From: Alphaproteobacteria bacterium
GTDB taxonomy: Bacteria; Pseudomonadota; Alphaproteobacteria; UBA3830
Direction: 5' to 3'
Assembly: GCA_017649895.1 (NCBI GenBank)
Contig: JAGCFW010000016.1
Span: 1-64,000, forward strand
Length of the DNA: 64,000 nucleotides
The translations under genes and the position numbers were made by a program. The notes under the pieces were generated by a model, which saw only the letters and a program-made list of their open reading frames with translations, was not told the DNA's origin and searched no databases. Positions 2,367-40,938 of the stretch are shown here, piece after piece; positions within the stretch are counted from its first letter, which is position 1; the number at the start of each line of letters is the position of its first letter.

Positions 2367-4553
2367 GTGGTGGATTTTCTGCTATCTCAAAAAGATTTGG
2401 TTGTTGAGTTGTCCATATCCGAGCTAAAAGATGATGTAATCGTCAACAGCATCAGAGGCTCGGAAGCTATATCCGAGTTGTTTGAATTTTACGTAAATTT
2501 TTCTTCTGCAAATAGAGAGATCAACGCTGAAAAAATCCTTGGATCAAATGTTACCCTCCACTTTAAATCAGAAAAACACGAAAGATTCATTAACGGAATA
2601 ATAACCCAGTTTTCACAAGGTAGAACTTCTCTAGAAAAAGATATCTATCATACTGAATATTTTTTTACGATGCGTCCGAAATTATGGCTTCTGTCCTTGG
2701 ACAGTAACTGCCAAATATTTCAAAAAAAATCTACGATGGAAATAATAAAGAATGTACTTAATGAATACAAAATAGACGTCACAGAATCAAAGTGCGGAAA
2801 TAACAGCCGTACCTACTGCGTACAGTATAACGAAAGTTCTTTTAATTTCATTTCTCGACTCATGGAGGATGAAGGAATTTTTTATTATTTCAAACATGAA
2901 AAGAACAAGCATACCCTCATAATCAGAGATAGTATGGACACGAATCAAAAACTTAAAGAAAAAGCCGGATTCATCAAAAGTAATCAGGAAATTTGTCCTC
3001 TCGGAAAGGTTTTTAATACAAGCAAAAATACTTTTATGAATGTCGGTGGATATTCCGCGGCAGATTACAATTATGAAAATTCCAATACGAAATTATTCAA
3101 TAAGTTAAACACAAAATGGAAGGGACAAACTCTTTTCTATGAATATCCGGGAGGATTTTCTCAGGCCAAAGATGGTGAAAAACTATCGAAGCTCAGAATT
3201 CAAGAAATTGAATGCAAACACATGATGTTGCAGGGAGATTCCACCATCCCGGATTTTTCTCCAGGAACAACATTTGAGCTCGCAGACCACAATGCCAAAA
3301 GTTTCAATGATTCTTATATCCTATATAAAGTAGAACACATATTCGACCGAACAGAAAAAAATGGATTTGTTTACCGAAACAGATTTTGGGCTTTACCAAA
3401 AGGTACTGAGTTCAGACCTCCCAGAAAAACACATAAACCAAAAATCTACGGAAATCAAACAGCGGTGGTAGTCTGTCCTTCCAAACAAGAGATATATCGT
3501 GATAAATATTGCTGCATCAAGGTTCATTTTCACTGGGATCAGAAAGGAAAATCGAAGGATACGAACGACAGCTCTTGTTGGATCAGAGTCGCTCAATTAA
3601 TGGCCGGAAGTAATTGGGGAGCAGTTTATGTCCCCAGGGTCGGGCAAGAAGTTGTTGTTTCATTTTTGGAAGGAGACCCGGACAAACCCCTAGTTGTTGG
3701 ATGTGTTTACAACGATCAATTCAAGCCTCCTTATTCTGAATCCCAAGACAAAATATCCACAATGAAGACTGTAACCTTTACTGACGACAAGGGATTTAAC
3801 GAAATCCGATTTAACGATGAAAAGGAAAAGGAGGAAATTTTCATTCATGCTCAAAAAGATATGAAAACGGACATAGTCAACTCGCGAGAAACTAAAATCG
3901 AGGAAGATAACGATAAGTTAGATATCCTAAAGGGTTCTCGTTCCGTCAAATTACACGCAAAAGATAATAAGAAAAAAGCAGACTATTCGCTGGAATTGGT
4001 AAAAGGTAATCGATCAATACTGCTGCAAGAAGGAAATTCTTCTTTCGTTATAAAAAAAGGGAACAGCTCCGTCGAGCTTCAAAAAGGGAACCAAACCGTC
4101 GAGATCGATGGAGATTGTACCATTAAAATTTCAGGTAATTTAAAAATCGAAGCCGATAAAAATATTTCAATAGAAGCAGGAAAAGAAATTTCTATAAAAT
4201 CCGGAACATCAATAAAGGCAGAGGCTGAACGGAATATTACAATTAAAGCTGATGCTTCGGCAACTTTCAAAGCTACCCGAAATTTCTCTTGTGAATCCGG
4301 AGCCTCCATGAAAATTAAGTCTTCTCTTAGTACGGACTTAAAAGCTGGCGCAAGCATGAATATAAGCGCTGGTGCAAGTATGAATATAAAATCTAACACA
4401 TTCATGAATATAAAATGTACGGGAATCCTCAATGCTGAAGGTACAGGAGCGGCAAACTTAACAGGTGCCGCAGTTCAGATAAACGGAAAAGGTATGTCCA
4501 GTTTCCGCGCACCAATGTTAACCATCGGAGGAGGGATGATTTCATTTGGATAA
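2367..4553 (+). CDS. vgrG: Type VI secretion spike protein VgrG (TssI)
   Basis: 728 aa. The N-terminus is typical VgrG (RGSEAISELFEFYVNF). The C-terminus has a gp5-like beta-helix repeat (GASMNISAGASMNIKS...) with no extension domain. AAGGAGG RBS at 2357; the GTG at 2370 has better spacing than the GTG at 2367. Confidence 0.9.
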   Translation: MVDFLLSQKDLVVELSISELKDDVIVNSIRGSEAISELFEFYVNFSSANREINAEKILGSNVTLHFKSEKHERFINGIITQFSQGRTSLEKDIYHTEYFFTMRPKLWLLSLDSNCQIFQKKSTMEIIKNVLNEYKIDVTESKCGNNSRTYCVQYNESSFNFISRLMEDEGIFYYFKHEKNKHTLIIRDSMDTNQKLKEKAGFIKSNQEICPLGKVFNTSKNTFMNVGGYSAADYNYENSNTKLFNKLNTKWKGQTLFYEYPGGFSQAKDGEKLSKLRIQEIECKHMMLQGDSTIPDFSPGTTFELADHNAKSFNDSYILYKVEHIFDRTEKNGFVYRNRFWALPKGTEFRPPRKTHKPKIYGNQTAVVVCPSKQEIYRDKYCCIKVHFHWDQKGKSKDTNDSSCWIRVAQLMAGSNWGAVYVPRVGQEVVVSFLEGDPDKPLVVGCVYNDQFKPPYSESQDKISTMKTVTFTDDKGFNEIRFNDEKEKEEIFIHAQKDMKTDIVNSRETKIEEDNDKLDILKGSRSVKLHAKDNKKKADYSLELVKGNRSILLQEGNSSFVIKKGNSSVELQKGNQTVEIDGDCTIKISGNLKIEADKNISIEAGKEISIKSGTSIKAEAERNITIKADASATFKATRNFSCESGASMKIKSSLSTDLKAGASMNISAGASMNIKSNTFMNIKCTGILNAEGTGAANLTGAAVQINGKGMSSFRAPMLTIGGGMISFG

Positions 4554-5154
4554 TCTAGAAACAATCGAATCAGATAAGGTAAACGCAGAGAATGAGATCA
4601 AAACAGAAGAAGTTAGATCTCCTGATGGAAAATTAATGAGAACTTATTCGATGAAAGGCTATCAAATGCACGGTCCGATGGTTATTTACGATAATAACGA
4701 ACAAATCGCTCAGAAATTAAACTACGAAGACAATGTCCTATCAGGCCCCGCGGAATTTTATCAAGATGGAGTTCCCTTGATGTATACCCAATTTCAAAAT
4801 GGAACAATAGACGGACCTGCTACTTTATTTAATAAGGGTATAAAATCTGCTGAAACAACATTTAAAAATGGAGTAATTGAAGGCATTTTTGTTTCATTCG
4901 ACGAGGCCGGAAGAATTATTCGTGAAGCAACTTATGTCAAAGGCCAAATGGAAGGCGATTGCTACCTCTATTATCCAGACGGAGTCGTTCAGGAGAAATC
5001 GTGCTACAAAAACAATAAACTCGATGGAACCGTTACGAGATATTATCATTCGGGAGCTATACTCGAGGTTTCGAATTATGAAAACGGTCAACCTATCGGA
5101 TATACAAAAACCTACGATGAAAACGGAAATCTAATTTCGAGCAAGGAGGCATAA
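4546..5154 (+). CDS. MORN-repeat-variant protein, YwqK-antitoxin-family-like
   Basis: 202 aa with repeated G..G....Y..nG......nG.ldG...YY motifs. The start overlaps the vgrG stop (ATGGATAA). Confidence 0.6.
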   Translation: MDNLETIESDKVNAENEIKTEEVRSPDGKLMRTYSMKGYQMHGPMVIYDNNEQIAQKLNYEDNVLSGPAEFYQDGVPLMYTQFQNGTIDGPATLFNKGIKSAETTFKNGVIEGIFVSFDEAGRIIREATYVKGQMEGDCYLYYPDGVVQEKSCYKNNKLDGTVTRYYHSGAILEVSNYENGQPIGYTKTYDENGNLISSKEA

Positions 5155-5537
5155 TGGGATTTTGCTGCAGCATCGGAGCTTTACTCAGTTGTCCAATGGG
5201 ATTAACACCAACTCCGCTAACAGTTATACCAAAAAATCTCTTTGGACCAACCGGTCCGATGGCCACTTGTCTGGACTGTGTTCCATTCTTAAACATCGCT
5301 CCGTTTGGTGTTTGTAAAAGCCTTTTGAATCCATCAACTGCAGCACTTACTGCTGCAGCGTTCGGAGTACTCACTCCTGGGCCATGCATCCCTACCCCTG
5401 CGGGTCCTTGGATCCCGACAAAACCAAACATAGTTGGAATCACCGGGCCTATTTTGGCAGATAGTTCAATACTAATGTGCGCGTTTGGAGGAGTGATTAA
5501 AGTCAACATGCCTGGGCAATATACCATAACGATTTGA
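5154..5537 (+). CDS. DUF4280 PAAR-like protein (putative VgrG tip cap)
   Basis: 127 aa, Cys/Gly/Pro-rich: GALLSCPMG...APFGVCKS...TPGPCIPTPAGPWIP...SSILMCAFGGVIKVNMPGQ matches my recollection of the DUF4280 pattern. TAATG overlap with the upstream gene. Confidence 0.6.
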   Translation: MGFCCSIGALLSCPMGLTPTPLTVIPKNLFGPTGPMATCLDCVPFLNIAPFGVCKSLLNPSTAALTAAAFGVLTPGPCIPTPAGPWIPTKPNIVGITGPILADSSILMCAFGGVIKVNMPGQYTITI

Positions 5538-10292: not shown

Positions 10293-10293
10293 A

Positions 10294-12634: not shown

Positions 12635-12647
12635 TTAAACTCTCCCC

Positions 12648-13886: not shown

Positions 13887-13900
13887 AATAATTCTCCCTT

Positions 13901-16126: not shown

Positions 16127-16152
16127 ATCACTTCTCCTACACTCTCTTCTAA

Positions 16153-17448: not shown

Positions 17449-17452
17449 ATCA

Positions 17453-29524: not shown

Positions 29525-29625
29525 GATTTCACCCTCCCCTCTGAATCAAAATCTAGACAATTCTATTGCAAAAAATTATACAAATCAATTAAATTTGACA
29601 AATTTTATAATGCGATCAATAGAAA

Positions 29626-31128: not shown

Positions 31129-31133
31129 GGTTA

Positions 31134-31793
31134 CTATTCCTCCGCTTCAGGTTTCGCTATTTTTATGTAGGATACGACCTTTTTCACTCCGGAAGTACTG
31201 CGAGCGATATTCAAAACGACGTCCCTTTCATATGCAGACATCGCCGTTCCACACATGTAAACCACTCCATTGACCGTAGTGGTATCATAGTTCAAGGATG
31301 CCACATTTCCGTTACTCTTCATACTCGCCTCGATACGAGTAGTAATTCCCGCATCAGCAGCAAAAGTCCCGATTTTAGCTTGAGGCTCTACCTTAGTTTC
31401 GTAATAAACATCCTTAACCTGAACCTTGTCAATGATATCTTTAACTCTTTCACACTGAGACTCATCATCGAAGCTTCCGATTACAACGACTATCCCATGT
31501 TTGACCGCTAACTCGATCCTATCGTACAATTCTTTGTCTTTGTTCAGCAAAGTCAGGCGGATCTTTTCCTTCAAATAGGTGTCTGAAATTTGCCCAGTAA
31601 TTCCTTCCTTATCACGAACCGTGACAGTACCTGCAACAACTGTACCACCAACCAACCAACTCACCGGATCGCAAGCTGTTAACAAAAAAGCTGATCCGAT
31701 CAGTGAAAAATTCACTAACTTTCGCATAAAACCTCCTCTAGCTCCTGCGGAATTGTAACATCTTACAATCACTGTTCCAACAGAATTTTGCAT
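31134..31793 (-). CDS. BON-domain lipoprotein (OsmY-like, two BON domains)
   Basis: Lipobox LLTAC. Two repeats of the BON-like pattern. 14 nt downstream of tssA on the same strand. Confidence 0.7.
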   Translation of the reverse strand: MQNSVGTVIVRCYNSAGARGGFMRKLVNFSLIGSAFLLTACDPVSWLVGGTVVAGTVTVRDKEGITGQISDTYLKEKIRLTLLNKDKELYDRIELAVKHGIVVVIGSFDDESQCERVKDIIDKVQVKDVYYETKVEPQAKIGTFAADAGITTRIEASMKSNGNVASLNYDTTTVNGVVYMCGTAMSAYERDVVLNIARSTSGVKKVVSYIKIAKPEAEE

Positions 31794-31807
31794 AACAAAT
31801 CAACTAA

Positions 31808-32878
31808 CTACTTCTTTTGTTCGGTCTCTTTTTTGTAAAAAATACTGTATAGTTCAGAAATAGTATTTAAAACCGGAACACCGCTTCGCATGTTCAACTC
31901 AAGCAATTCCTGAAAACTTTTCTTACCGATCATGACTGCAACCTTGAGCAAAGTGGATGAAGGACTTTGCGGCTGCTTCTTTTCCAAGAATGAAGCAATT
32001 TCGGAGAGAGCATCATAAGCTTGACCGATTGTTGGCTCTCTATTTTGATTTTTGTTATCATCTTCTAGTATCATTTCGTCATCGGTGTTATTGGACGGAG
32101 GAGCCTGTTTCTCAACTTTCCCCTTTTGCGCCGCCTGAGCCTGTTGCTTTTCTTTCAGTTCAATATTTTTCAAAGTAATTCGTTTAATATCTTCCAAATA
32201 CTCTGTCAATTGATGAAAACTCGGCGCATCTTGACCGCATTTTTCATCAAGAAAAGCTCTCAGTTCCTTCAAAAGATTAATCGATTTCTCTACTTGATCT
32301 GCAATACCTCTGAAGGTCTCGAGAGCAGTAACGGCTACTTGCTTACTGATCATCTTGAGGGAAATTCCATTGGTGTTTTTGATCTGCAGATTTCTACGCG
32401 CTTCCATCCAGTCAGACAAAGAATAAATCAGGGAATCTTCCGTACTGGTAAGCGGAATCAAAACTATTCTTTCAGAAATTTTATCCGATAAGAAAAAAAA
32501 CGGAGCTAATCGATAATCGTAGCTGTGATTTTCCCAGTCTATAGCCGGATAAATTTCATCCCAAAATTTTTCACTGAGGCCTTTAACTAACTTTAATCCG
32601 TCGATAAATCCCTCGAATTGCCGCTCGATAATCCAAGACTCCATCAGCCACATAGCTATTTGTAAATCTTTCGTTTTAGTTTTAAGAAGTTCACAACCAA
32701 GTTTGTTAAGCTGAGTCCAATCCGCGCGTTTCGGCTCAGTCTGCCAAACCCCCTGAGATAAACGAATATCGTCTTCCCGACGCAGCTCTTTCAGCTCATC
32801 ATAGACATGATCGTAGCACAGATATTCGCCACAATTACTTTTTGATGATATCGGTTTTAATAAGCTCTCTATATCCAT
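31808..32878 (-). CDS. tssA: Type VI secretion protein TssA (ImpA N-terminal domain)
   Basis: 356 aa. N-terminal LLKPIS...CGEYLCYDHVYDELKELRREDD is a typical ImpA_N. Confidence 0.75.
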   Translation of the reverse strand: MDIESLLKPISSKSNCGEYLCYDHVYDELKELRREDDIRLSQGVWQTEPKRADWTQLNKLGCELLKTKTKDLQIAMWLMESWIIERQFEGFIDGLKLVKGLSEKFWDEIYPAIDWENHSYDYRLAPFFFLSDKISERIVLIPLTSTEDSLIYSLSDWMEARRNLQIKNTNGISLKMISKQVAVTALETFRGIADQVEKSINLLKELRAFLDEKCGQDAPSFHQLTEYLEDIKRITLKNIELKEKQQAQAAQKGKVEKQAPPSNNTDDEMILEDDNKNQNREPTIGQAYDALSEIASFLEKKQPQSPSSTLLKVAVMIGKKSFQELLELNMRSGVPVLNTISELYSIFYKKETEQKK

Positions 32879-32944
32879 AACTCCCGAACCTCACTTTATT
32901 CAATCAATCTTATTTACTTTTGCTCTATCCATTTTTACTCAATT

Positions 32945-35900
32945 TTATTCATCAAACGATACATCAACATCTAAAGGAGCTGCCTCCGATGGTTTATTAT
33001 CCTTATTATCGGATGAAGACTGTTCTTTTTCTTCTGACGACTTGGTACCATACAAGCTTGGGCAACTCTTCGGAAATAAAGGCCATGCTATCGGCGTTAA
33101 CTTCTCTCCATCCCTTACCATAGGAGTAACTTTATAAACCATTTTTGCATCTCCTACTTCAGCCCCATCTTTCTGAGAGACAACAGGAACGTTAAATTGC
33201 AGTACAACACCGTTTGAATATTCAACACCTTTGCTGACTTTATGAGCTTCAATCATGCGGAATAAAGCCCACGTCCCGGTATACTTAAAGGCAGCAAAAT
33301 TGCTATTGATACTGAGATTTCCCTCAGCCTTGTCTTCATTCGGTTTTTCGTTCGCTGAAGCTACCCATCCGAAACCGACCGTTACAGCATTACCATAAAA
33401 AAACACTCCGTTATTATTGTCCGAAACAGGCATATTATTAATAGAAAACGTTCTGTCTATTACGGCAGATGTCAATGCTTCCATATTCGGAAAAGGTCGT
33501 AACAATACGTTAAAGCACATCGGACAAGTATTCGGGTCAGAACTCTTGGACTGAGCAACACATGCTTTCAAGAACGGCAGTATTTTATTAGTGTTTTCAA
33601 AGAAATCAAATACCTGAGAATTGACCTGTTTTGTCTCTTTATTTCTTTTCAAAACATTTATCGAAGTAGCATCTATCACCTCGTAAGCTTTAACAAATTC
33701 TTCAAGATCTTTAATCTCAGCGTCTTCATCAGAATCTCCGAACGGGAATTTTTTAGCCAACTTTTTGTTGAATATGTTGTAAACTTTATTGTAGGTCGAT
33801 GCTACTCTGTCGTATTGCACTGTGTCGGCACGATTTATGAGAGATTTTGCCACAACCGAACGCTTAGACAAGAAATAGTCTGAATCATTTTGCGAAATAT
33901 CCTTAATTTCTCCCTGAGTATCGAAATTATCCAAAGATACCTTGGAAAGATTTTCACTGATGAAGCTCTCCAGTGCCGCGATCGAATTACCAGGTTTGTT
34001 GTTTTCGTAGTCATCGACACTGGTAATAATTTCCCGCCATTTGTTAATCAACTTCTTGTTGCGAATTTTTTCAAAAATATTAGGAATGGTCAGCAAATCC
34101 ACAATCGGACTGGCTAAATCCTTCGCTAAAAACTTTATCCTTTCAAACTGAGCACTCAAATATTGTTTGATATTAGCTTGGCTGCTCATTTTCATAAATT
34201 GAGGATTTCCGTTGCCATCCCAGTCATCGAATAAAGCAGAACTGGTGGAATACGGTTTTTCTGTATTGAATAAGGCATCAATCTTCTCCAGTAACCCCAA
34301 ATACTGGGAAATTATAAGATCGGAAAAACCAAAATCCTGTAAATTTTCCTCCGAAATAATTTCGTCCAAAATTTTTATTATTTTCGGAAGAGATACTGAA
34401 ACATTGCGAATATTCAATGCCTGTTTTTTATAAGAATTTTCGAATAGGGCCCTTGAATTACCCAACGGCATATCCTCTAAAATTTGAGCATTTCCGATCA
34501 TTGCTTTAATGGTTGGATAAAAACACTTTTTCGCGACCGTTTTGTAGATATCAAAATATTCCGCCCTCATTCCCTCAGGAACTGTTTCAGAAAATTCGTT
34601 GTATTTATCGATCAAATTGCAAAGCTCTTTTAAACGCTTAACATCCCAGATCAGCATTTTGTCCGTCGGAAGTTCTCGCGAAAAATGCCCCAAAGGAACT
34701 ACACAAATGAAAGGAAGATCCAACAGGGATTTCAACTCTCCTTTCACCTGCATAAACCCTTCCGATGGATTTTGGTTATTTAAAATCTTCCCTGAAAGAT
34801 TGGATTTGTACGCCCCTAATGCATCCTTATAACTATTAAATGAAACATCTGCAAAATGCATCAGATCTCTCAAACAGTCAGGACTGACCGTTCCCGTAGA
34901 CTCTAAGTTATTCAAAATTTTTTGATATTCAGGAGTTGGACAAAAAGCATTTTCTCTGATCCACGAAAAATTTTTGTTTTTGAAAATATCTTCTACCAAC
35001 TCCACCTTATTGTAGAGCTTCGCCAAATCCTGAACACTGTAATTAACCTTCGAATTTTGTCCCGCCTCATGCAAACGATCGATATCACTCGCGACATTCT
35101 GAAGGACTTTTTCCACGGTCGTATCCAAAGCGTCTTTTATAAAATTATCGAAGATATTTTTCAAACTGTTTTCGATATTTGTTTGGAAATCCTCCAAATT
35201 AAATTTCGGTGGCATGATCTGCTTATTCGGAACATGTGTTCTCATTTCATCAGTAATTTCAAATTTATCCTTGAAAAGAGACTCTGTTACGCTTATGACA
35301 TTGTTGCTGTCCTCCAAATTTCGTATAGAGTTATATTCGGAACTGATTTTTTTCAAATTCTTAATTTTTTCAGCAAATTCTGATAGCTCCTTGAAGCTCT
35401 CAAAATTCAGCACATCGAAAATGTCTTTCTGACTATTGAGACTTTTTTTCGAAGACTTGCGCGACCCCAGTAAAATATTTTTAGTGTTGAAGTTTAAGTC
35501 GATATACATAGCTTTTACCACAACAGAATCAAAAACCAATTCCGTTGTCGATCTGACGGAACTTCCTATTCCGAAAAACCAAGACTGAGGCACAAAAATC
35601 GAGAAGAAATCCCCCATTCTTGTCACCGGCATATTTTGCAGCAAAGCAGATGCCTGACTGTTAATCAGGGATTGATCTTCCGCATTTTTCAAAGTGTCTT
35701 CCAGATATTTTATCCGAAGCAAATTTTTCTTCACAGTACACATTGTCTGATAGCAACTCCGAACATTGGTTCTGATGTTGCCGTTCCCCCAAATCCATCC
35801 TACTGAGAAAAACAGTGCCGACCCGGCAAATATCAGCTTGTTGCGATATTCTTTTTTAGTAATACCCCCCGTATCTTTCAAAATAGGATACGCAATGTTG

Positions 35901-37153
35901 TGCTCCTTAAAAATCTTGTCCTTGAAAAGATCCTGTACGAAATACAAGTCATCCGTATGCAAATAATTCGAACTGGCGTCAATATCTACACCGGGCATTA
36001 GGGCTGATACTTGTACAACTCCCCCCGAAGAAATCGCTACTTCCTTTTGACGTCCGACAAAATAAACCCCTCTTAAAATCATACCGTCCATAGGATTGTG
36101 GGTACGGAACATCGTAAGCAAATATTCCGACAACATCGGTTTAATTTTTTCAAAATATGCTTCGAATAGCATCGCTTTTTCGAGATTTTCATCTATATTT
36201 CTCTTACGAGCGAAATAGAATCCCGCTTTTCGGATTCCATCGGCTATGGTGCTGAAAATTTCATTAATCCAATTCGGAGAAAACGCCATGTCCAATGAAT
36301 AAGGGCACGACCATCCGAAAATTTGCTGCTTTGTATTTTCTTTCAACAAATGAACAAACTCTTGAAATCCGAAAATCTGGTCTGCCTTGGTCACTATAAA
36401 ATATATCGGAAGCTTGAAATTGATATCGTGCTGAAATTGAAATATCCTGTCGAACATTTCACGGGCGTGCTTTTCAACGTTTACAGCTCCTGAAATAAAG
36501 AAATCTGCGGGAACTGTAACAATAATTCCATCAAGCGGACGACGTGGTCTTATGAAAACAAATAATTCACTGATAAAGGTCCAAAATTTGGATTTATCCA
36601 CCGCCGGATCTATATTCGGAAACTCAAAAATAGCCCCTTCCTTAAACAATTTCCACAAAGAATTTTTCTCTGATTTCTCGGACATCAAGTGCTCAAAATT
36701 TAAATTGTCCAATAAAGTCGTTTTCCCGCTTCCTTTAGGACCTATAATCATAAAACAAGGAAGTTTGTACCTCCATCTCAGGTCGTATGTACTGCTTCGT
36801 ATGGCTTCTAAAACTTTGAAAAACATTTTTGTTATGGGACCGATTTTCAAAATACCCAAAAGACTGAGAATCTCACCTAACCTTCCCGAAATCGTAGGTA
36901 TTTCCTCGCAGCTTCCATCTTTGATTGCTGTTTCAATTTTAGGCTTTTCTTCTTGTTTTTTCTTTAAATCATCTCTTTTCAGCGGAGTGATCACCTTAGG
37001 CTTAGGTTGAGAATTTATGTACATTACGCACATAACAAAAAAAATCAGTACCAAAATAATCGAAAACAAAATCAATCCTAAGGAAACCGCAGGTACCATC
37101 TCTTTGGGAATTGCAGGTAAACTGTCAGACAAAAAATTCTTAAATCCATCCAT
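32945..37153 (-). CDS. tssM: Type VI secretion membrane-complex protein TssM (IcmF)
   Basis: 1402 aa. N-terminal TM helices, Walker A GPKGSGKTT, a long periplasmic IcmF-related region, and an acidic C-terminal tail. Confidence 0.9.
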   Translation of the reverse strand: MDGFKNFLSDSLPAIPKEMVPAVSLGLILFSIILVLIFFVMCVMYINSQPKPKVITPLKRDDLKKKQEEKPKIETAIKDGSCEEIPTISGRLGEILSLLGILKIGPITKMFFKVLEAIRSSTYDLRWRYKLPCFMIIGPKGSGKTTLLDNLNFEHLMSEKSEKNSLWKLFKEGAIFEFPNIDPAVDKSKFWTFISELFVFIRPRRPLDGIIVTVPADFFISGAVNVEKHAREMFDRIFQFQHDINFKLPIYFIVTKADQIFGFQEFVHLLKENTKQQIFGWSCPYSLDMAFSPNWINEIFSTIADGIRKAGFYFARKRNIDENLEKAMLFEAYFEKIKPMLSEYLLTMFRTHNPMDGMILRGVYFVGRQKEVAISSGGVVQVSALMPGVDIDASSNYLHTDDLYFVQDLFKDKIFKEHNIAYPILKDTGGITKKEYRNKLIFAGSALFFSVGWIWGNGNIRTNVRSCYQTMCTVKKNLLRIKYLEDTLKNAEDQSLINSQASALLQNMPVTRMGDFFSIFVPQSWFFGIGSSVRSTTELVFDSVVVKAMYIDLNFNTKNILLGSRKSSKKSLNSQKDIFDVLNFESFKELSEFAEKIKNLKKISSEYNSIRNLEDSNNVISVTESLFKDKFEITDEMRTHVPNKQIMPPKFNLEDFQTNIENSLKNIFDNFIKDALDTTVEKVLQNVASDIDRLHEAGQNSKVNYSVQDLAKLYNKVELVEDIFKNKNFSWIRENAFCPTPEYQKILNNLESTGTVSPDCLRDLMHFADVSFNSYKDALGAYKSNLSGKILNNQNPSEGFMQVKGELKSLLDLPFICVVPLGHFSRELPTDKMLIWDVKRLKELCNLIDKYNEFSETVPEGMRAEYFDIYKTVAKKCFYPTIKAMIGNAQILEDMPLGNSRALFENSYKKQALNIRNVSVSLPKIIKILDEIISEENLQDFGFSDLIISQYLGLLEKIDALFNTEKPYSTSSALFDDWDGNGNPQFMKMSSQANIKQYLSAQFERIKFLAKDLASPIVDLLTIPNIFEKIRNKKLINKWREIITSVDDYENNKPGNSIAALESFISENLSKVSLDNFDTQGEIKDISQNDSDYFLSKRSVVAKSLINRADTVQYDRVASTYNKVYNIFNKKLAKKFPFGDSDEDAEIKDLEEFVKAYEVIDATSINVLKRNKETKQVNSQVFDFFENTNKILPFLKACVAQSKSSDPNTCPMCFNVLLRPFPNMEALTSAVIDRTFSINNMPVSDNNNGVFFYGNAVTVGFGWVASANEKPNEDKAEGNLSINSNFAAFKYTGTWALFRMIEAHKVSKGVEYSNGVVLQFNVPVVSQKDGAEVGDAKMVYKVTPMVRDGEKLTPIAWPLFPKSCPSLYGTKSSEEKEQSSSDNKDNKPSEAAPLDVDVSFDE

Positions 37154-37155
37154 AT

Positions 37156-37908
37156 TTACGCTCTCAACACTATAGCTGATATCTCGTGTAAAATTTCATA
37201 TAAGTCTCGTGTCTCGATCAGCCAAACAACAGAACTTATTACCAAAAACATAAAAACAAAGAAGGCATAAACGTAATTAATAACAGAAACGTCCGGCAGA
37301 AATTGTCTATTAATTGTCGGCAATGTATAAGTGTACTCTTTACCGAACATTCTGTGACTCACCATATCGATAGATTTGTCGTACTTTTCAACAAAATTGA
37401 AAAGATTTCTCCTGAAAACGTTTATCGGCTTATCTTTATCCGTATCATCTCTGAATTTACCTCTGAATCCCAACGAAAGCACCTTCATGTAAATTTCCGC
37501 GATCAATAGGCTTTCGACATCATTTTTCTCAATCAATTTTTCGATATTATTGAAGATTTTTTCTCCGGCTATTTGGGTCCCAAAAAAATGTTTTTCAAGC
37601 ATGTTATCTTCCCAGAATTTTTTTCCGTCCCAAGAAATATTCAAAAAGATTTCATCGGCCAAAGAAACCATGATATAAACCACTTCCCTTACTTGCTGCT
37701 CAAAAGTAATACTCTTCTGACGCTCAAGAATTCCTTTTACTTTCGATACCAAATTTTTGTAAATTACTTTCGGATCGAGATTCTCCGTTTTTTGGATAAT
37801 CTGAGTCTTGTATTTAAAAATTTCCGAGCAGAAATCGCCAAAAATTAAGCCCAGGTCTGTAATTTTACTATCTCTCTGCATAAAGAATAATCTCCTCCGG
37901 AACGACAT
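37156..37908 (-). CDS. tssL: Type VI secretion protein TssL (DotU)
   Basis: 250 aa. Cytoplasmic DotU-like domain with a single C-terminal TM anchor (FFVFMFLVISSVVWLI). Confidence 0.8.
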   Translation of the reverse strand: MSFRRRLFFMQRDSKITDLGLIFGDFCSEIFKYKTQIIQKTENLDPKVIYKNLVSKVKGILERQKSITFEQQVREVVYIMVSLADEIFLNISWDGKKFWEDNMLEKHFFGTQIAGEKIFNNIEKLIEKNDVESLLIAEIYMKVLSLGFRGKFRDDTDKDKPINVFRRNLFNFVEKYDKSIDMVSHRMFGKEYTYTLPTINRQFLPDVSVINYVYAFFVFMFLVISSVVWLIETRDLYEILHEISAIVLRA

Positions 37909-39160
37909 CCAAATTACTGCTTATCAGACATAATTGTTCGTTACTCTTAATGTATGTGGTTTTAGTTTTTACCGCGATAATGGTCACACCATTAGGCTGA
38001 GTAATATATTCTCCTCTTTCCAAAATCCTTCGTTCCGCCCCCAAAATTCGACGATCTTTTATCAAGGGCATCATCGATTCACTGGCGATTTGAAGCCCCT
38101 TAATCCAATTTATAACATCGCTGTCAGTTGCCGAAAACGGCTTGCGAATACCGATAGCAATTTCATCCTTCTCAAGTAAATGCGGATTCATCATTAATCT
38201 AAATTCATCCTGAACTTTATCGAACAAAAGAACATCATACTTCTGTTTCAAGTGAGAAATTATTCCATGAATATAGTCATGCAGCTGAGAAAAACAGCCA
38301 TATAAATCTTCATGTTTATAAGCAGGCAGTCTCGGAATTAGCTGTGCCGGATTCATCGACATCACAAACGCTGCTGTCTGAGACAAAGCTTTGAACAATT
38401 CGAACGGATGCACGCCTTCCACCTCAAGAACCGTCTCCAAAGGAATTGCCGCCTGTATTAATAATCGAAGATTCGCAAAAGATTCTTCCGTTTGATTTCG
38501 AGCAAAATTTTCTTTGCGATCTGCAAAATATGAGATCTTGTCTCGAATGAGTCGCACAAGAGAGGAGCACATTTCAATAATCTTCGAATGCTTATCCAAA
38601 GATAAGAATGGAGCGATAAATTTCGTCTCAGAGATGCCTCCGTCAACTGATTTTCCCACCTCAAACACAGGAAAACTTTGATATCTGGCATCCACTTGAT
38701 CTTCCTGCATTAATTTCAGATTTGGTTTTAAAACAGGTACTGTAATCGGCTCTTTTCCCGTATTTTCGTCCTTTACGTCAGCAATTTCCGAGGAATAATA
38801 GCGAGCAAAATTTCCTTCCAGCATATTTTCACCACTACGTCGGGACGGTGTAGCCAAATAAATTTTCGTAGAGGCAGAATTGACCTCGAAATAATCCCCC
38901 AGATTTAATTCCAACGGATCATCGCGCGTCGCATCAAAATCGAAAAACAATCCATCTCGGAAAAAGCCTTTCGCTTTCAATACTCGAACTAATCCCGAAG
39001 ACAAACATGAGGTATCTATTTTAAGATCGAATACACCGTATCCAAAAGGAAAAACCGCCGCCGACGTATACCCGATCACCTGCTGAAAATACCCTGTCGT
39101 TAATTGAAAATGCTGTGGAGAAATTAACATTCCTTCATGCCACTGAACCAAAGATTCCAT
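37868..39160 (-). CDS. tssK: Type VI secretion baseplate protein TssK
   Basis: 430 aa. N-terminus MESLVQWHEGMLISPQHFQ matches the TssK signature. The 3' end overlaps the tssL start. Confidence 0.85.
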   Translation of the reverse strand: MESLVQWHEGMLISPQHFQLTTGYFQQVIGYTSAAVFPFGYGVFDLKIDTSCLSSGLVRVLKAKGFFRDGLFFDFDATRDDPLELNLGDYFEVNSASTKIYLATPSRRSGENMLEGNFARYYSSEIADVKDENTGKEPITVPVLKPNLKLMQEDQVDARYQSFPVFEVGKSVDGGISETKFIAPFLSLDKHSKIIEMCSSLVRLIRDKISYFADRKENFARNQTEESFANLRLLIQAAIPLETVLEVEGVHPFELFKALSQTAAFVMSMNPAQLIPRLPAYKHEDLYGCFSQLHDYIHGIISHLKQKYDVLLFDKVQDEFRLMMNPHLLEKDEIAIGIRKPFSATDSDVINWIKGLQIASESMMPLIKDRRILGAERRILERGEYITQPNGVTIIAVKTKTTYIKSNEQLCLISSNLDVVPEEIILYAER

Positions 39161-39352
39161 TTACTCTCCTACATAAACTCCCAAGGATTAAGCTAAATTA
39201 ATATTGGTTAATTAATGGTTAAATTTATTGAAAATTATTAATTAATTTATAGAAGCCACAAAATTTTATAAAGAATCTCTCACAATTCGTTCATTAACCA
39301 ATAATTAATACATTATTGATATTCTGTTTTACTAAGAGATTGGAGGAATGTC

Positions 39353-39949
39353 GTGAAGAAGATAATTTTTGGACTGTCCATTTGCGTGACACTATCGGGT
39401 TTTGGATCCAATGTCAATATGAACCAATCCGAAAAGGTCGCAACATTATTAGATACTGAATCTGATACTAAAGTACCTACATTTGTAGAACAAACCAACA
39501 AGATTGTACCTTCATCGAATTTTGAATCAAGCTCTAAGACAGATGTGTTCCTTAATGAAATAAAAGAACTTATTTTCTGGCTTACTAAAATAAGAAATTT
39601 GTTGTTAAATGAAAGATTGCAGGTAAACGCTAACCAAGAGGCAAAATCATATTTAAATGATCCGACTTTCATGAAATTTAAGCAAAATCTAATAAACTTT
39701 AATAAAGTCATGCAGAGTACCAAAGCTCATCGTAACACGATTTTTGGAAAAGGAGATGAGATATTCAGTGATAGCAATAATCAATTTTTCAGCTCCGAAA
39801 GCATACCTTCCGATTTGAAGAACTTGTACTCCAACGTTCTTAATGCTTGGGAAAAAATAAGATACGGAACAAATCCCAACGAAGAGTTAGACGATTTCAG
39901 GGAAAAGATTAAGTCACTGCATCAATATGTTCAAAATCAAAACACCTGA
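39353..39949 (+). CDS. Hypothetical secreted protein (Sec signal peptide, no lipobox Cys)
   Basis: 198 aa. GTG start with GGAGGA RBS. MKKIIFGLSICVTLSGFG signal peptide. Divergent from tssK. Confidence 0.5.
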   Translation: MKKIIFGLSICVTLSGFGSNVNMNQSEKVATLLDTESDTKVPTFVEQTNKIVPSSNFESSSKTDVFLNEIKELIFWLTKIRNLLLNERLQVNANQEAKSYLNDPTFMKFKQNLINFNKVMQSTKAHRNTIFGKGDEIFSDSNNQFFSSESIPSDLKNLYSNVLNAWEKIRYGTNPNEELDDFREKIKSLHQYVQNQNT

Positions 39950-40011
39950 CCAGTTTGATAAAACTCGGCTTCAAAAATTCTCAAGAACTTAACAACGAAA
40001 GAATAACTTTG

Positions 40012-40938
40012 TTACAAATCTTTCAGCAAATCCAAAGATTCCAGAGAGTTAATGTTCACCAGTCGCATACTCGGGGAAATTCTTTTCACCAGTCCAGTTA
40101 AAACCTTTCCTGCTCCAACTTCGATGCATTGAGAAACTCCCTGCGCTTCGGCATATCTAATTGACTCGACCCATCTAACTCTGCCCGTGATTTGTTTTAA
40201 CAAAAGCTCTTTGAAATTCTCCGTTTCCGCTTGCGCCGTAACATTCGCAATAATCGGTTTCGATGGAGATTTGAACTCGACATCAGATAACACTTCTTCC
40301 AAAATTTTTACTGCCGGCTTCATTAGTTCACTGTGAAACGGACCGCTGACAGGAAGAATTACCGCCCTCTTTGCACCACGGATCTGAGAGATTTCCGTCG
40401 CTTTTTTTACGGCTTCTTCATGACCACTGACAACGATTTGTCCGACGGAATTATCATTCGCAATTTGCACCTTGGACGTCTCAGAACACGACTCCTTCAC
40501 GATTTCCTCGACTTGATCTAGGCTTAATCCCAAAATCGCTGCCATCGCTCCACCTGTAGGACAAGCTTCGGACATCGCTTTTCCTCTGGTTCGTAAAATT
40601 CTCGCCGTATCTCTCAACGAAAGCGCCCCCGCCGCGCACAGCGCCGTGTACTCTCCCAAAGAATGTCCCGCGAAATATTTTACTTTTTCAGAAAGATCGA
40701 ATCCGAATTCTTTTCTCATCACCTCGACGAACGCCATACTAACCGTCATCAACGCCGGCTGGGTATTTTCTGTCTTTTTTAAATCCTCTTCAGTTCCTTC
40801 GAAAATCAACTTCGATAAATTAAAAGAAATCGCGTCGTCAACTTCGTGGAAAACATTTCTTGCCGAAGAAAAACTGTCGTAGACATCTTTTCCCATTCCA
40901 ATTTTTTGAGAACCTTGTCCTGGAAATATAAAAATCAT
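40012..40938 (-). CDS. fabD: Malonyl-CoA:ACP transacylase
   Basis: GQGSQ and GHSLGEY motifs. Confidence 0.9.
   Translation of the reverse strand: MIFIFPGQGSQKIGMGKDVYDSFSSARNVFHEVDDAISFNLSKLIFEGTEEDLKKTENTQPALMTVSMAFVEVMRKEFGFDLSEKVKYFAGHSLGEYTALCAAGALSLRDTARILRTRGKAMSEACPTGGAMAAILGLSLDQVEEIVKESCSETSKVQIANDNSVGQIVVSGHEEAVKKATEISQIRGAKRAVILPVSGPFHSELMKPAVKILEEVLSDVEFKSPSKPIIANVTAQAETENFKELLLKQITGRVRWVESIRYAEAQGVSQCIEVGAGKVLTGLVKRISPSMRLVNINSLESLDLLKDL

What the first reader, a model, noticed from the sequence alone, without database searches (positions are those of the whole stretch)
31134..39949. Orphan tssK-tssL-tssM-tssA block about 25 kb from the spike operon, with no sheath, tube, ClpV or TssJ genes in the window
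Only the membrane-complex genes (tssL, tssM), a baseplate gene (tssK) and tssA are present. They are in one orientation, they overlap or abut, and housekeeping genes flank them (fabD on one side, yifB and rpmI/rplT on the other). The vgrG operon lies about 25 kb away, and tssB/C, hcp, tssE/F/G, clpV and tssJ are not in these 64 kb. Either the T6SS is scattered across the chromosome or it is a degraded or minimal system. Scattering is unusual, since most T6SS are single 20-30 kb islands. Such a system in what looks like a reduced, host-associated genome would be noteworthy.
Basis: partly seen in the sequence, partly recalled or inferred. Interest (0 to 1): 0.6.

Follow-up and report, generated by a model that had tools for sequence, protein, structure and literature searches.

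The report
Scattered T6SS module, Holosporales-type symbiont
This is an intact four-gene piece (tssK-tssL-tssM-tssA) of a type VI secretion system whose other genes sit elsewhere in the genome of an uncultured rumen bacterium related to protist endosymbionts, a scattered layout already published for that bacterial group.

Summary
On the minus strand, tssK (37868-39160), tssL (37156-37881), tssM (32945-37153) and tssA (31808-32878) form one tight block between fabD and yifB. A vgrG/MORN/PAAR-like operon lies at 2367-5537. No sheath, tube, TssE/F/G, ClpV or TssJ-like gene is in the 64 kb or just outside it.

The block is not an orphan remnant. All four ORFs are full length. Their dN/dS is 0.01-0.12, the same range as the neighbouring housekeeping genes. 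The nearest genomes are ruminant-gut MAGs related to MAGs labelled Holosporaceae.

The MAG that carries the window's exact TssK and TssA (MBO7454610/MBO7454607) also carries a sheath gene (MBO7454481). That gene sits at a separate priA-linked locus.

Free-living relatives (Cupriavidus, Rhodoferax, Acidobacteria) hold the same modules in one island, so the symbiont layout is best read as a fragmented island.

Midha et al. 2021 already described this layout for Holosporales: [tssK-tssL-tssM-tssA], [tssB-tssC-hcp], [tssG-tssF] and [ywqK-vgrG] at separate loci. The finding is therefore a new member of a known kind, of low interest in itself.

Side observations outside the finding:
- The sheath genes tssB and tssC are fused in this gut clade.
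- No TssJ is recognisable.
- A fast-evolving secreted protein lies next to tssK.

The parts
37868..39160 (-). tssK, baseplate subunit, 430 aa; first gene of the block, with an AGGAG-type ribosome-binding site upstream
   Evidence: TIGR03353 gives 232 bits against a cut-off of 100, and Pfam T6SS_VasE gives 5e-49. The exact protein is MBO7454610.1. dN/dS is 0.03-0.04 against RUG11675 and RUG10665. The ribosome-binding site was read.
37156..37881 (-). tssL (DotU family, short form without a peptidoglycan-binding extension), 241 aa; the ORF could also start at 37908; overlaps tssK by 14 nt
   Evidence: Pfam DotU gives 1.6e-25, and TIGR03349 gives 91.5 bits against 89.95. Gene calls on four independent contigs use the 241-aa start. 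dN/dS is 0.01-0.04.
32945..37153 (-). tssM (IcmF-like), 1402 aa; one N-terminal hydrophobic segment, a cytoplasmic NTPase domain with an intact Walker A motif (GPKGSGKT), a second hydrophobic segment near residues 440-457, then a periplasmic part of about 940 aa that matches no curated model
   Evidence: Pfam IcmF-related_N covers residues 191-423 at 1.5e-36. TIGR03348 gives 152 bits, below its cut-off of 388. The protein aligns end to end (residues 102-1365) with the 1391-aa TssM of the complete Cupriavidus island, E = 5e-34. The sequence was read. dN/dS is 0.05. No PDB sequence match was found.
31808..32878 (-). tssA (short, ImpA_N type), 356 aa; last gene of the T6SS block
   Evidence: TIGR03363 gives 231 bits against 161, and ImpA_N gives 1e-31. 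It matches the chain deposited as TssA in PDB 6HS5 at 3e-29. The exact protein is MBO7454607.1. dN/dS is 0.10-0.12.
31134..31727 (-). DolP/OsmY-like outer-membrane lipoprotein with two BON domains (lipobox LTAC); probably a housekeeping gene paired with yifB, not a T6SS component
   Evidence: Pfam BON gives 8e-20. NF008247 (DolP) gives 80 bits, below its cut-off. The lipobox was read. The gene abuts yifB wherever it occurs. It follows tssA only in the subclade with 55% or more TssK identity, and in L016 it lies 1.8 kb from tssA.
39353..39949 (+). divergently transcribed 198-aa secreted or lipoprotein-like protein (signal peptide, invariant Cys11); fast-evolving and restricted to the rumen clade; not TssJ-like
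   Evidence: There is only a weak LPAM_1 hit. Homologues occur only in the six closest MAGs. dN/dS is 0.33-0.40. hhalign probability against the TssJ-like family of free-living relatives is 0.75%. A single-sequence AF2 model is all-helical but of low confidence, pLDDT 47.
39161..39352 (.). AT-rich 192-bp divergent intergenic region; presumed promoter region for the tssKLMA operon and for the 198-aa gene
   Evidence: The sequence was read. The consensus promoter scan found no more sites than chance across the scanned region (29400-40100) and none in this intergenic stretch, so the promoter role is inferred from position only.
2367..4553 (+). vgrG (TssI) spike, 728 aa; part of the same system at a separate locus
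   Evidence: Phage_GPD, Phage_base_V and Gp5_trimer_C hits. TIGR03361 gives 517 bits against 186.
4546..5537 (+). MORN_2 (YwqK-family) gene at 4546-5154 and DUF4280 PAAR-like gene at 5154-5537, immediately downstream of vgrG
   Evidence: for both domains. The same vgrG-MORN-DUF4280 order lies between clpV and tssK in the Rhodoferax island. In the Cupriavidus island the same-sized ORFs lie in the same positions, but vgrG, MORN and DUF4280 were labelled there by position only.

Best explanation
The block is the membrane-complex and baseplate-docking operon of a functional but physically dispersed type VI secretion system. The host is an uncultured ruminant-gut alphaproteobacterium of the Holosporales-type symbiont lineage.

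Proposed parts:
- TssL and TssM form the envelope-spanning complex. TssM keeps its Walker A NTPase motif and a long periplasmic domain.
- TssK docks the TssE/F/G-VgrG baseplate onto that complex.
- TssA primes and caps polymerisation of the tube and sheath.

The other parts are encoded at other loci as separate modules that keep their internal order. The spike module is in this window (vgrG-MORN-PAAR-like, 2367-5537). A sheath module lies next to priA: a fused tssB-tssC followed by two Hcp-like ORFs. By analogy with related published genomes, tssF-tssG and tssE lie elsewhere again.

The layout is best read as an ancestral single island that broke at module boundaries during symbiont genome rearrangement. 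The island type is tssB-C-hcp-E-F-G-clpV-vgrG-MORN-DUF4280-...-tssJ-like-tssK-L-M-A, and it is still intact in free-living Cupriavidus. Rhodoferax keeps at least the clpV-to-tssA part. Acidobacteria hold the same modules in one island in a different order (tssJ-like, tssK, L, M, A, then tssB, C, hcp, E, F).

Shown here: gene identities, synteny, intactness, purifying selection, and a sheath gene in the same MAG.

Inferred, not shown: co-transcription of the four genes, assembly into a working machine, and delivery of effectors into a protist host, presumably a rumen ciliate.
For: Gene identities come from curated models and a PDB TssA match.

Selection and intactness: all four ORFs are full length, with dN/dS 0.01-0.12 at dS 0.14-0.37 against the two closest MAGs. 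gyrA, ABC, fabD and yifB give 0.02-0.09.

Synteny: the K-L-M-A order is conserved in all 67 genome loci found, from 23% to 98% TssK identity. The block is isolated among housekeeping genes in every Holosporaceae-type MAG.

Sheath gene in the same genome:
- The window's exact TssK and TssA are MBO7454610.1 and MBO7454607.1.
- A fused TssBC, MBO7454481.1, falls in the same accession block.
- Five further MAGs show the same TssK/TssBC pairing of accession numbers.
- The TssBC locus is always priA-tssBC-(~200 aa)-(~185 aa)-pntB, on contigs from the same study series as the window.
- In MBO7454481.1, residues 1-185 are TssB and residues 187-687 are a full TssC.

Single-island relatives: Cupriavidus pMTS1 carries tssB, C, hcp, E, F, G and clpV (all Pfam-confirmed), then ORFs in the vgrG, MORN and DUF4280 positions, a TssJ-like lipoprotein, then tssK, L, M (1391 aa) and A. 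Rhodoferax has clpV-vgrG-MORN-DUF4280 ... tssK-L-M-A.

Literature: Midha et al. 2021 (PMC8163844) report the conserved four-locus arrangement in three Holosporales families. They list CPBP_00934-937 as tssK-L-M-A (tssM 4272 nt) and report transcription of the T6SS genes. The review PMC11909080 adds that the T6SS is conserved in almost all Holosporineae genomes.
Against: - TssE, TssF and TssG were not located for this organism. Their presence rests on published relatives.
- No ClpV and no recognisable TssJ were found. Midha's gene table lists no ClpV either. The machine may therefore be non-standard or depend on substitutes.
- The two ORFs after tssBC are only weakly Hcp-like (hhalign probability 9.7%, E = 0.0033).
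- The same-MAG link rests on adjacent NCBI accession numbers, not on reading the assembly.
- MAG bins can be contaminated.
- Some related MAGs show a split or truncated tssM or tssA (L012, L017, L033), so loss may occur in some lineages.
- No expression or functional data exist for this organism.
Confidence: 0.85

Rival explanations
1. The block is a decaying remnant of a T6SS that the reduced genome is losing. The four genes are no longer part of a working machine.
For: - No sheath, tube, baseplate-wedge, ClpV or TssJ genes lie nearby.
- TssM fails the TIGR03348 equivalog cut-off.
- Some related MAGs carry a split or truncated tssM or tssA (L012, L017, L033).
Against: - All four ORFs are full length, and their lengths are conserved across the clade.
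- dN/dS is 0.01-0.12, indistinguishable from the flanking housekeeping genes.
- The long TssM form is a trait of the whole subtype, including complete islands in free-living bacteria.
- An intact sheath gene is present in the same MAG.
- The T6SS is retained even in the smallest Holosporineae genomes (PMC11909080).
Confidence: 0.05
2. The block is a duplicate or auxiliary copy, and a complete canonical T6SS island with its own tssKLMA exists elsewhere in the genome.
For: The whole genome could not be read here. Many bacteria carry several T6SS loci (general knowledge).
Against: - The sheath genes of this lineage are themselves an isolated fragment between priA and pntB, not part of an island.
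- Each of six MAGs contributes one TssK and one TssBC to the respective protein clusters.
- Published complete Holosporales genomes have only the dispersed set (PMC8163844).
Confidence: 0.04
3. The IcmF-like and DotU-like genes belong to a Dot/Icm-type IVB secretion system, or to another non-T6SS apparatus, rather than to a T6SS.
For: IcmF and DotU homologues also occur in type IVB systems. NF038228 (IcmH/DotU IVB) gives a weak hit of 29.8 bits.
Against: - That hit is below its cut-off of 50.
- The two genes are bracketed by TssK and TssA, which are specific to T6SS and score above their equivalog cut-offs.
- No other dot/icm genes are in the window.
- VgrG, a PAAR-like gene and a sheath gene are present in the genome.
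Confidence: 0.01
4. The apparent isolation of the block is an artefact of metagenome assembly or binning, for example a chimeric contig.
For: All sequences of this lineage come from metagenomes.
Against: - The identical order fabD / 198-aa gene / tssK-L-M-A / BON / yifB is found on contigs from four samples and different assemblers. It is also found in several separately assembled MAGs at 82-98% TssK identity.
- Contigs reach 256 kb.
Confidence: 0.01

Closest known systems
Dispersed T6SS of Holosporales endosymbionts, e.g. Candidatus Bodocaedibacter vickermanii (Midha et al. 2021, PMC8163844)
   Same: - The same isolated four-gene block in the same order.
- TssM of similar unusual length (4272 nt there, 4209 nt here).
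- vgrG with a YwqK/MORN gene and a DUF4280 gene at other loci.
- The sheath module at yet another locus.
- No clpV in the published gene table.
- A host-associated small genome.
   Different: - The Bodocaedibacter table lists a 'T6SS membrane lipoprotein' gene (CPBP_00933) next to tssK. Here that position holds an unrelated-looking, divergently transcribed, fast-evolving helical protein.
- There tssB and tssC are separate genes. In this gut clade they are fused.
- Here the MORN gene is downstream of vgrG; the paper reports the YwqK gene upstream of one vgrG.
- TssK of the ~30%-identity MAGs that carry a same-strand upstream signal-peptide ORF (L057, L058, L060) shares only about 30% identity with the window protein. 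Whether these are Paracaedibacter-like lineages is my inference.
Single-island T6SS of the same subtype in free-living bacteria: Cupriavidus sp. P-10 plasmid pMTS1 (NZ_AP025172.1), Rhodoferax saidenbachensis, Acidobacteria such as Edaphobacter
   Same: - The same tssK-tssL-tssM(long, 1350-1390 aa)-tssA order.
- The same vgrG-MORN-DUF4280 module. It was confirmed by Pfam in Rhodoferax; in Cupriavidus it is assigned by position only.
- TssM aligns end to end with the window's TssM.

   Different: - All modules are contiguous in one island that also carries clpV and a TssJ-like lipoprotein just upstream of tssK (sub-threshold to TIGR03352, E = 0.002-0.006).
- Protein identity to the window is only 17-30%.
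- Cupriavidus TssM lacks the Walker A motif that the window protein keeps.
Canonical T6SS(i) membrane complex TssJ-TssL-TssM with TssK and TssA, as solved for enteroaggregative E. coli and Burkholderia cenocepacia
   Same: The component families are the same: DotU-like TssL, IcmF-like TssM, TssK, and ImpA_N TssA. TssA matches the chain deposited as TssA in PDB 6HS5 at 3e-29; its attribution to B. cenocepacia is my own recollection.
   Different: - No TssJ partner is recognisable.
- The TssM periplasmic region matches no Pfam or PDB sequence and is about 250 aa longer.
- The genes are not in an island.
- T6SSs without TssJ (Agrobacterium, Acinetobacter) or without ClpV (Campylobacter, Francisella) are known; this point is from my own knowledge and was not tested here.

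Membership tests
Type VI secretion system, proteobacterial type (T6SS-i) | TssK baseplate subunit recognised by the equivalog model | tested here: met
   TIGR03353 gives 232 bits against a cut-off of 100. Pfam PF05936 gives 5e-49.
Type VI secretion system, proteobacterial type (T6SS-i) | TssL (DotU family) inner-membrane subunit | tested here: met
   TIGR03349 gives 91.5 bits against 89.95, and PF09850 gives 1.6e-25. The specific 'TssL short form' model NF038239 stays below its cut-off, 56 against 180.
Type VI secretion system, proteobacterial type (T6SS-i) | TssM (IcmF-like) recognised over its full length | tested here: inconclusive
   - The TIGR03348 equivalog cut-off is not met (152 against 388).
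- Only the N-terminal PF14331 domain is found.
- No PDB sequence hit is found, even with a profile.
- Position, length and an end-to-end alignment to the TssM of complete islands support orthology.
Type VI secretion system, proteobacterial type (T6SS-i) | TssA with an ImpA_N domain | tested here: met
   TIGR03363 gives 231 bits against 161. PDB 6HS5 TssA matches at 3e-29.
Type VI secretion system, proteobacterial type (T6SS-i) | Contractile sheath TssB and TssC encoded in the same genome | tested here: met
   The fused TssBC MBO7454481.1 (PF05591 + PF05943 + PF18945) lies in the same accession block as the window's TssK and TssA, MBO7454610 and MBO7454607. The link is inferred from accession numbering, not from reading the assembly.
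Type VI secretion system, proteobacterial type (T6SS-i) | Hcp tube protein | tested here: inconclusive
   Two paralogous ORFs follow tssBC. They have no Pfam or NCBIfam hit. hhalign against canonical Hcp gives probability 9.7%, E = 0.0033, collinear over 136 columns. Midha et al. call the Bodocaedibacter ORF in the same position (directly after tssC) 'Hcp1-like'.
Type VI secretion system, proteobacterial type (T6SS-i) | Baseplate wedge TssE, TssF and TssG | not testable with these tools
   They are absent from the window and from all fetched loci of the clade. The rest of the genome could not be read. Related published genomes have them at separate loci.
Type VI secretion system, proteobacterial type (T6SS-i) | TssJ outer-membrane lipoprotein | tested here: not met
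   - No PF12790 or TIGR03352 hit is found in the window.
- The TssJ-like profile from free-living relatives finds nothing.
- The adjacent 198-aa protein is unrelated.
- A copy elsewhere in the genome cannot be excluded.
Type VI secretion system, proteobacterial type (T6SS-i) | ClpV sheath-recycling ATPase | not testable with these tools
   It is not in the window or its flanks. It is not listed in the published Bodocaedibacter T6SS gene table. Whole-genome data are needed.
Type VI secretion system, proteobacterial type (T6SS-i) | VgrG spike and a PAAR-type tip | tested here: met
   VgrG: TIGR03361 gives 517 bits against 186. PAAR-like tip: DUF4280 at 2.7e-22.
Holosporales dispersed T6SS layout (Midha et al. 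2021) | [tssK-tssL-tssM-tssA] as an isolated, order-conserved block among housekeeping genes | tested here: met
Holosporales dispersed T6SS layout (Midha et al. 2021) | Separate [vgrG + YwqK/MORN] locus and separate [tssB-tssC-hcp] locus | tested here: met
   The vgrG-MORN-DUF4280 locus is at 2367-5537. The priA-linked tssBC + Hcp-like locus is present in the same MAG and population. Two variants are seen: tssB and tssC are fused, and the MORN gene is downstream of vgrG.
Holosporales dispersed T6SS layout (Midha et al. 2021) | Separate [tssG-tssF] locus | not tested
   No seed sequence from this lineage could be obtained.
Holosporales dispersed T6SS layout (Midha et al. 2021) | Organism belongs to the Holosporales | tested here: inconclusive
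   The closest genomes are ruminant MAGs labelled only Alphaproteobacteria or proteobacterium. The nearest family-labelled relative is 'Holosporaceae bacterium UBA3830' (86% TssK, 95% GyrA identity), and dozens of MAGs labelled Holosporaceae follow at 51-62%. No phylogeny was built.
Dot/Icm type IVB secretion system | IcmH/DotU and IcmF accompanied by other dot/icm genes | tested here: not met
   NF038228 gives 29.8 bits against a cut-off of 50. No other dot/icm genes are in the window.

The most novel reading that the evidence does not exclude
The gut-associated Holosporaceae clade, in ruminants and termites, may run a naturally streamlined T6SS. The conserved TssK-L-M-A module would work without a TssJ lipoprotein and without ClpV. 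The sheath would be built from a single fused TssB-TssC polypeptide around divergent, duplicated Hcp-like tube proteins. In the rumen subclade, a fast-evolving secreted or lipoprotein-like gene sits where TssJ sits in free-living relatives, and it may be a lineage-specific envelope or host-interaction partner. The fusion itself is directly observed in more than 100 protein clusters. The genome-wide absence of TssJ and ClpV, and function of the system, are not shown.
Probability: 0.3. Interest if true: 0.5.

Novelty: new member of a known kind. Interest (0 to 1): 0.2.

Why it matters
In itself it matters little. It extends a published Holosporales trait, a dispersed but conserved T6SS, to an uncharacterised ruminant-gut lineage that NCBI labels only as Alphaproteobacteria.

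Two practical points follow:
- Island-based T6SS detectors will call these genomes 'incomplete'. A recent rumen-ciliate symbiont survey reports no complete T6SS from direct homology searches of its candidate symbiont genomes, which are not this lineage. That is only an illustration; no cause was established there.
- The comparison with intact islands in Cupriavidus and Rhodoferax shows where the ancestral island broke, namely at module boundaries.

The side observations could interest T6SS structural biologists, but they lie outside the finding. They are the fused TssB-TssC sheath, the lack of a recognisable TssJ, and possibly the lack of ClpV.

Tried and rejected
1. **The plus-strand 198-aa ORF next to tssK as TssJ: rejected.**
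 - It has no TssJ model hit.
 - hhalign probability against the TssJ-like family is 0.75%.
 - Its predicted structure is all-helical, though the single-sequence AF2 model has pLDDT of only 47.
 - It is found only in the six closest MAGs.

2. **The BON lipoprotein downstream of tssA as part of the system: judged unlikely.** It always abuts yifB, and it adjoins tssA only in one subclade.

3. **TssM against solved structures: no hit.** Neither the single sequence nor a 15-sequence profile matched any PDB chain.

4. **The TssJ-like family of free-living relatives against PDB: no hit**. It gives only sub-threshold TIGR03352 matches.

5. **Promoter and terminator scans: no more sites than chance**.

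6. **Finding TssE, TssF, TssG and ClpV of this lineage: not achieved.**
 - Probes from the Cupriavidus island hit no Holosporaceae locus.
 - A generic query would return only Burkholderiales in the best 120 hits, so the third large protein search was not spent.

7. **Extending the window:**
 - 10 kb to the left there are an Omp85 protein, TamB and a GST.
 - 7 kb to the right there are a partner-switching module, RNase T, Dus, an HTH_8 regulator gene and an NtrY-like sensor kinase gene.
 - No T6SS genes lie on either side. One look-up failed because the ORF start differed.

8. **The plasmid hit used as reference carried no annotation**. Its genes were identified by Pfam instead.

9. **The rumen-ciliate symbiont preprint does not cover this lineage**.

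Full report
**What is in the sequence**

The region 31134-39949 holds six ORFs. Curated models identify four of them on the minus strand as T6SS components.
- tssK, 37868-39160: TIGR03353, 232 bits against a cut-off of 100.
- tssL/DotU, 37156-37908 as an ORF: TIGR03349, 91.5 bits against 89.95. Gene callers on four independent contigs start it at 37881.
- tssM, 32945-37153, 1402 aa: Pfam IcmF-related_N at 1.5e-36. TIGR03348 gives only 152 bits against 388.
- tssA, 31808-32878: TIGR03363, 231 bits against 161.

tssK and tssL overlap by 14 nt. The tssL-tssM gap is 2 nt and the tssM-tssA gap is 66 nt. tssK has an AGGAG-type ribosome-binding site and a 192-bp AT-rich region upstream.

- One is a DolP/OsmY-like lipoprotein with two BON domains and a classical LTAC lipobox. 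Its real start is near 31727.
- The other is a plus-strand 198-aa protein with a signal peptide (39353-39949).

- On one side: fabD, a SPOUT methyltransferase, an ABC ATPase, gyrA and ssb.
- On the other: yifB, an SPFH protein, rpmI, rplT and dksA.

**The rest of the window**

- vgrG (2367-4553, +) is followed by a MORN_2 (YwqK-type) gene, a DUF4280 PAAR-like gene and a small gene with a weak HIT match.
- A complete-looking Tad/Flp pilus locus occupies 9321-18016.
- Everything else is housekeeping.

I probed the window with tblastn and hmmsearch. The probes were the lineage's own fused TssBC and Hcp-like profile, a canonical Hcp profile, a TssJ-like profile built from free-living relatives, and TssE, TssF, TssG and ClpV from a related complete island. 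Only the known VgrG, MORN, TssK, TssL and TssM matched.

Look-ups of genes near the ends of the window reached 10 kb further left and 7 kb further right.
- Left: an Omp85 protein, TamB and a GST.
- Right: a partner-switching module, RNase T, Dus, an HTH_8 regulator gene and an NtrY-like sensor kinase gene.
- Neither extension holds a T6SS gene.

**Which organism**

The exact TssK occurs only on metagenome contigs. Its homologues at 51-62% identity are mostly named 'Holosporaceae bacterium'.

A scan of one genome per GTDB species found 67 loci.
- The closest are rumen MAGs RUG11675 and RUG10665, at 98% TssK identity.
- Next come RGIG8297, RUG13554 and 'Holosporaceae bacterium UBA3830', at 86-87%.
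- Dozens of termite-gut and ruminant-gut Holosporaceae MAGs follow at 51-62%.

The window thus comes from an uncultured ruminant-gut lineage affiliated, by database labels, with the Holosporales. That order consists of obligate symbionts, mostly of protists. I built no phylogeny.

**Is the block degraded?**

No. All four ORFs are full length, and their lengths are conserved across the clade.

Nei-Gojobori dN/dS against the two closest MAGs, at dS 0.14-0.37:

| Gene | dN/dS |
|---|---|
| tssK | 0.03-0.04 |
| tssL | 0.01-0.04 |
| tssM | 0.05 |
| tssA | 0.10-0.12 |
| gyrA, ABC, fabD, yifB (flanking) | 0.02-0.09 |
| plus-strand 198-aa gene | 0.33-0.40 |

The unusual TssM is a property of the whole subtype, not a sign of decay. 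It is 1402 aa long, and its periplasmic part matches no Pfam model or PDB sequence. It aligns end to end (residues 102-1365) with the 1391-aa TssM of a complete island in Cupriavidus. A 15-sequence alignment has invariant residues through to the C-terminus. The window protein keeps a Walker A motif, GPKGSGKT. TssA matches the chain deposited as TssA in PDB 6HS5 at 3e-29.

**Where are the other genes?**

Two termite-gut relatives had a sheath gene within 10 kb of tssK. I used that gene as a seed. The search returned more than 100 clusters of a fused TssB-TssC protein of 645-760 aa carrying PF05591, PF05943 and PF18945.

Nine of those clusters form the rumen clade. One contains MBO7454481.1. The window's exact TssK and TssA are MBO7454610.1 and MBO7454607.1. 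TssA and TssK are three accession numbers apart, which fits A-M-L-K being contiguous, and the sheath protein lies 126 accessions away. I take this to mean the same MAG submission.

Five further MAGs show the same pairing:
- MBO7537257 / MBO7537422
- MBO7641634 / MBO7642107
- MBO6056266 / MBO6055563
- MCR4623872 / MCR4624026
- MCR4555380 / MCR4555980

In MBO7454481.1, residues 1-185 are TssB and residues 187-687 are a complete TssC.

The sheath locus is always priA-tssBC-(~200 aa)-(~185 aa)-pntB. It is itself an isolated fragment among housekeeping genes, on contigs from the same study series as the window. The two small ORFs after tssBC are paralogues and only weakly Hcp-like (hhalign probability 9.7%, E = 0.0033, collinear over 136 columns).

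I could not locate TssE, TssF, TssG or ClpV for this lineage.

**Comparative anatomy**

The K-L-M-A order is conserved in all 67 loci, from 23% to 98% TssK identity. In every Holosporaceae-type MAG the block stands alone among housekeeping genes, and the neighbours differ between subclades.

In free-living bacteria the same modules are contiguous.
- Cupriavidus sp. P-10 plasmid pMTS1 carries tssB, tssC, hcp, tssE, tssF, tssG and clpV, all Pfam-confirmed. ORFs in the vgrG, MORN and DUF4280 positions follow, labelled there by position only. Then come four metabolic or transport genes, a 170-aa lipoprotein, and tssK, tssL, tssM and tssA.
- Rhodoferax has clpV-vgrG-MORN-DUF4280 ... lipoprotein-tssK-L-M-A.
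- Acidobacteria have lipoprotein-tssK-L-M-A followed by tssB-C-hcp-E-F.

That lipoprotein has a textbook lipobox. It gives sub-threshold, near-full-length matches to TIGR03352 TssJ (E = 0.002-0.006).

The two T6SS loci of the window are therefore two modules of one ancestral island type. The symbiont layout is most simply explained by fragmentation at module boundaries. The direction of change is inferred from the breadth of the single-island state, not proven.

**TssJ**

The window has no recognisable TssJ.
- The 198-aa gene beside tssK is on the opposite strand.
- It occurs only in the six closest MAGs.
- It has a variable middle region and an invariant Cys11 in an atypical lipobox-like context.
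- It shows no profile similarity to the TssJ-like family (probability 0.75%).
- It is predicted to be all-helical, at low confidence (pLDDT 47).

More distant MAGs at about 30% TssK identity (L057, L058, L060) have a same-strand signal-peptide ORF upstream of tssK. It probably corresponds to the 'T6SS membrane lipoprotein' CPBP_00933 that Midha et al. list next to tssK in Bodocaedibacter.

The BON lipoprotein follows tssA only in the subclade with 55% or more TssK identity. It always abuts yifB, and in L016 it lies 1.8 kb from tssA. I treat it as flanking housekeeping.

**Literature**

Midha et al. [quoted passage not shown]
- They list CPBP_00934-937 as tssK-L-M-A, with tssM at 4272 nt.
- tssB, tssC and hcp are 48 genes away, tssF/G and tssE are elsewhere, and no clpV is listed.
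- RNA-seq showed low-level transcription of these genes.

The 2025 Holosporales review (PMC11909080) says the T6SS is conserved in almost all genomes, including the smallest. It calls the system 'probably non-standard' because some components appear to be missing. PMC9992710 calls these systems 'reduced but potentially functional'.

**Mechanism**

Roles below come from established knowledge of T6SS components, not from tests on this organism.
- TssL and TssM form the envelope-spanning membrane complex.
- TssK links the TssE/F/G-VgrG baseplate to the cytoplasmic faces of TssL and TssM.
- TssA primes and caps tube and sheath growth.

Here these four are probably one operon. The spike (VgrG with a PAAR-like tip), the fused sheath with its Hcp-like proteins, and the wedge genes are supplied in trans from other loci. 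Contraction would deliver effectors, presumably into a protist host. Co-transcription, assembly, the target, and the way the complex reaches the outer membrane without TssJ are all inferred or open.

**Verdict**

| Item | Judgement |
|---|---|
| Observation | Confirmed |
| 'Scattered' | Supported |
| 'Degraded' | Not supported for the four window genes |
| 'Unusual and noteworthy' | Largely pre-empted by published work |
| Novelty | New member of a known kind: a ruminant-gut lineage not yet described in this respect |
| Interest | About 0.2 |

The more interesting material lies outside the finding: the natural TssB-TssC fusion, for which I found no report, the apparent lack of TssJ and ClpV, and the fast-evolving envelope protein next to tssK.

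Noticed in passing
L097:10001-12049 (+); L023:5435-7501 (-); protein P0244 = MBO7454481.1: The sheath subunits TssB and TssC are fused into one ORF of 645-760 aa (PF05591 + PF05943 + PF18945). This is seen in roughly 105 of the best 120 protein clusters, all from gut-associated Holosporaceae-type MAGs of termites and ruminants. More distant Holosporales such as Candidatus Finniella have a separate TssC of about 485 aa. No part is lost in the fusion: residues 1-185 are TssB and residues 187-687 are TssC. A literature search found no report of such a fusion.
   Followed up: partly
L097:12102-12707 and L097:12896-13450 (+); also L023:4759-5364 (-): One or two paralogous ORFs of 165-208 aa always follow tssBC. 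They have no Pfam or NCBIfam hit. They resemble canonical Hcp only weakly, though collinearly (hhalign probability 9.7%, E = 0.0033). They are candidate divergent, duplicated tube proteins.
   Followed up: partly
window 39353-39949 (+): A 198-aa signal-peptide protein with an invariant Cys11 and a variable middle region, restricted to the six closest MAGs. It evolves much faster than its neighbours (dN/dS 0.33-0.40 against 0.01-0.12). It is a candidate host-interaction or envelope protein, transcribed divergently from tssK.
   Followed up: partly
window 9321-18016 (-): A Tad/Flp pilus locus. In order of increasing coordinate it holds two TadB/C-like T2SSF genes, the TadA ATPase, a CpaE-like ATPase with a receiver domain, CpaD, the secretin, RcpC/CpaB and a prepilin peptidase. 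It lies between the vgrG operon and the tssKLMA block.
   Followed up: no
window 5539-6015 (+): The fourth gene of the vgrG operon (154-158 aa) has only a weak HIT-domain match, and the precomputed annotation lists no Pfam hit for it. By position it could be a cargo, adaptor or immunity gene.
   Followed up: no
L104:10985-14800 versus L105:10987-13674 (just left of window position 1266): A strain-variable spot lies next to the FkbM-type methyltransferase. One contig has an 895-aa ORF with no domain hit. Another has a second 327-aa ORF plus an rve-family transposase.
   Followed up: no
L017:15915-17047; L033:12185-15061; L012:12008-16048: Some related MAGs show a split tssA or a truncated tssM. 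These may be real pseudogenisation in those lineages or assembly errors. The window copies are intact.
   Followed up: no
L076:19386-19898; L064:9397-9903 and 12 further loci (alignment A2): Free-living relatives of this T6SS subtype carry a conserved lipoprotein of about 160 aa directly upstream of tssK. It has a textbook lipobox, escapes Pfam entirely, and scores only sub-threshold against TIGR03352 TssJ (E = 0.002-0.006). It is probably an unrecognised, divergent TssJ family.
   Followed up: partly
window 1-64000: GC skew is strongly negative from about 8 to 46 kb and from 58 to 64 kb, and positive from 46 to 54 kb. It tracks the coding strand: minus-strand genes in the first two stretches and plus-strand genes in the third. 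I did not test whether the switch near 46 kb has anything to do with replication.
   Followed up: no
window 32945-37153 (-) versus L076:22118-26293: The symbiont TssM keeps a canonical Walker A motif (GPKGSGKT, residues ~138-145). The TssM of the complete Cupriavidus island has lost it at the aligned position.
   Followed up: no
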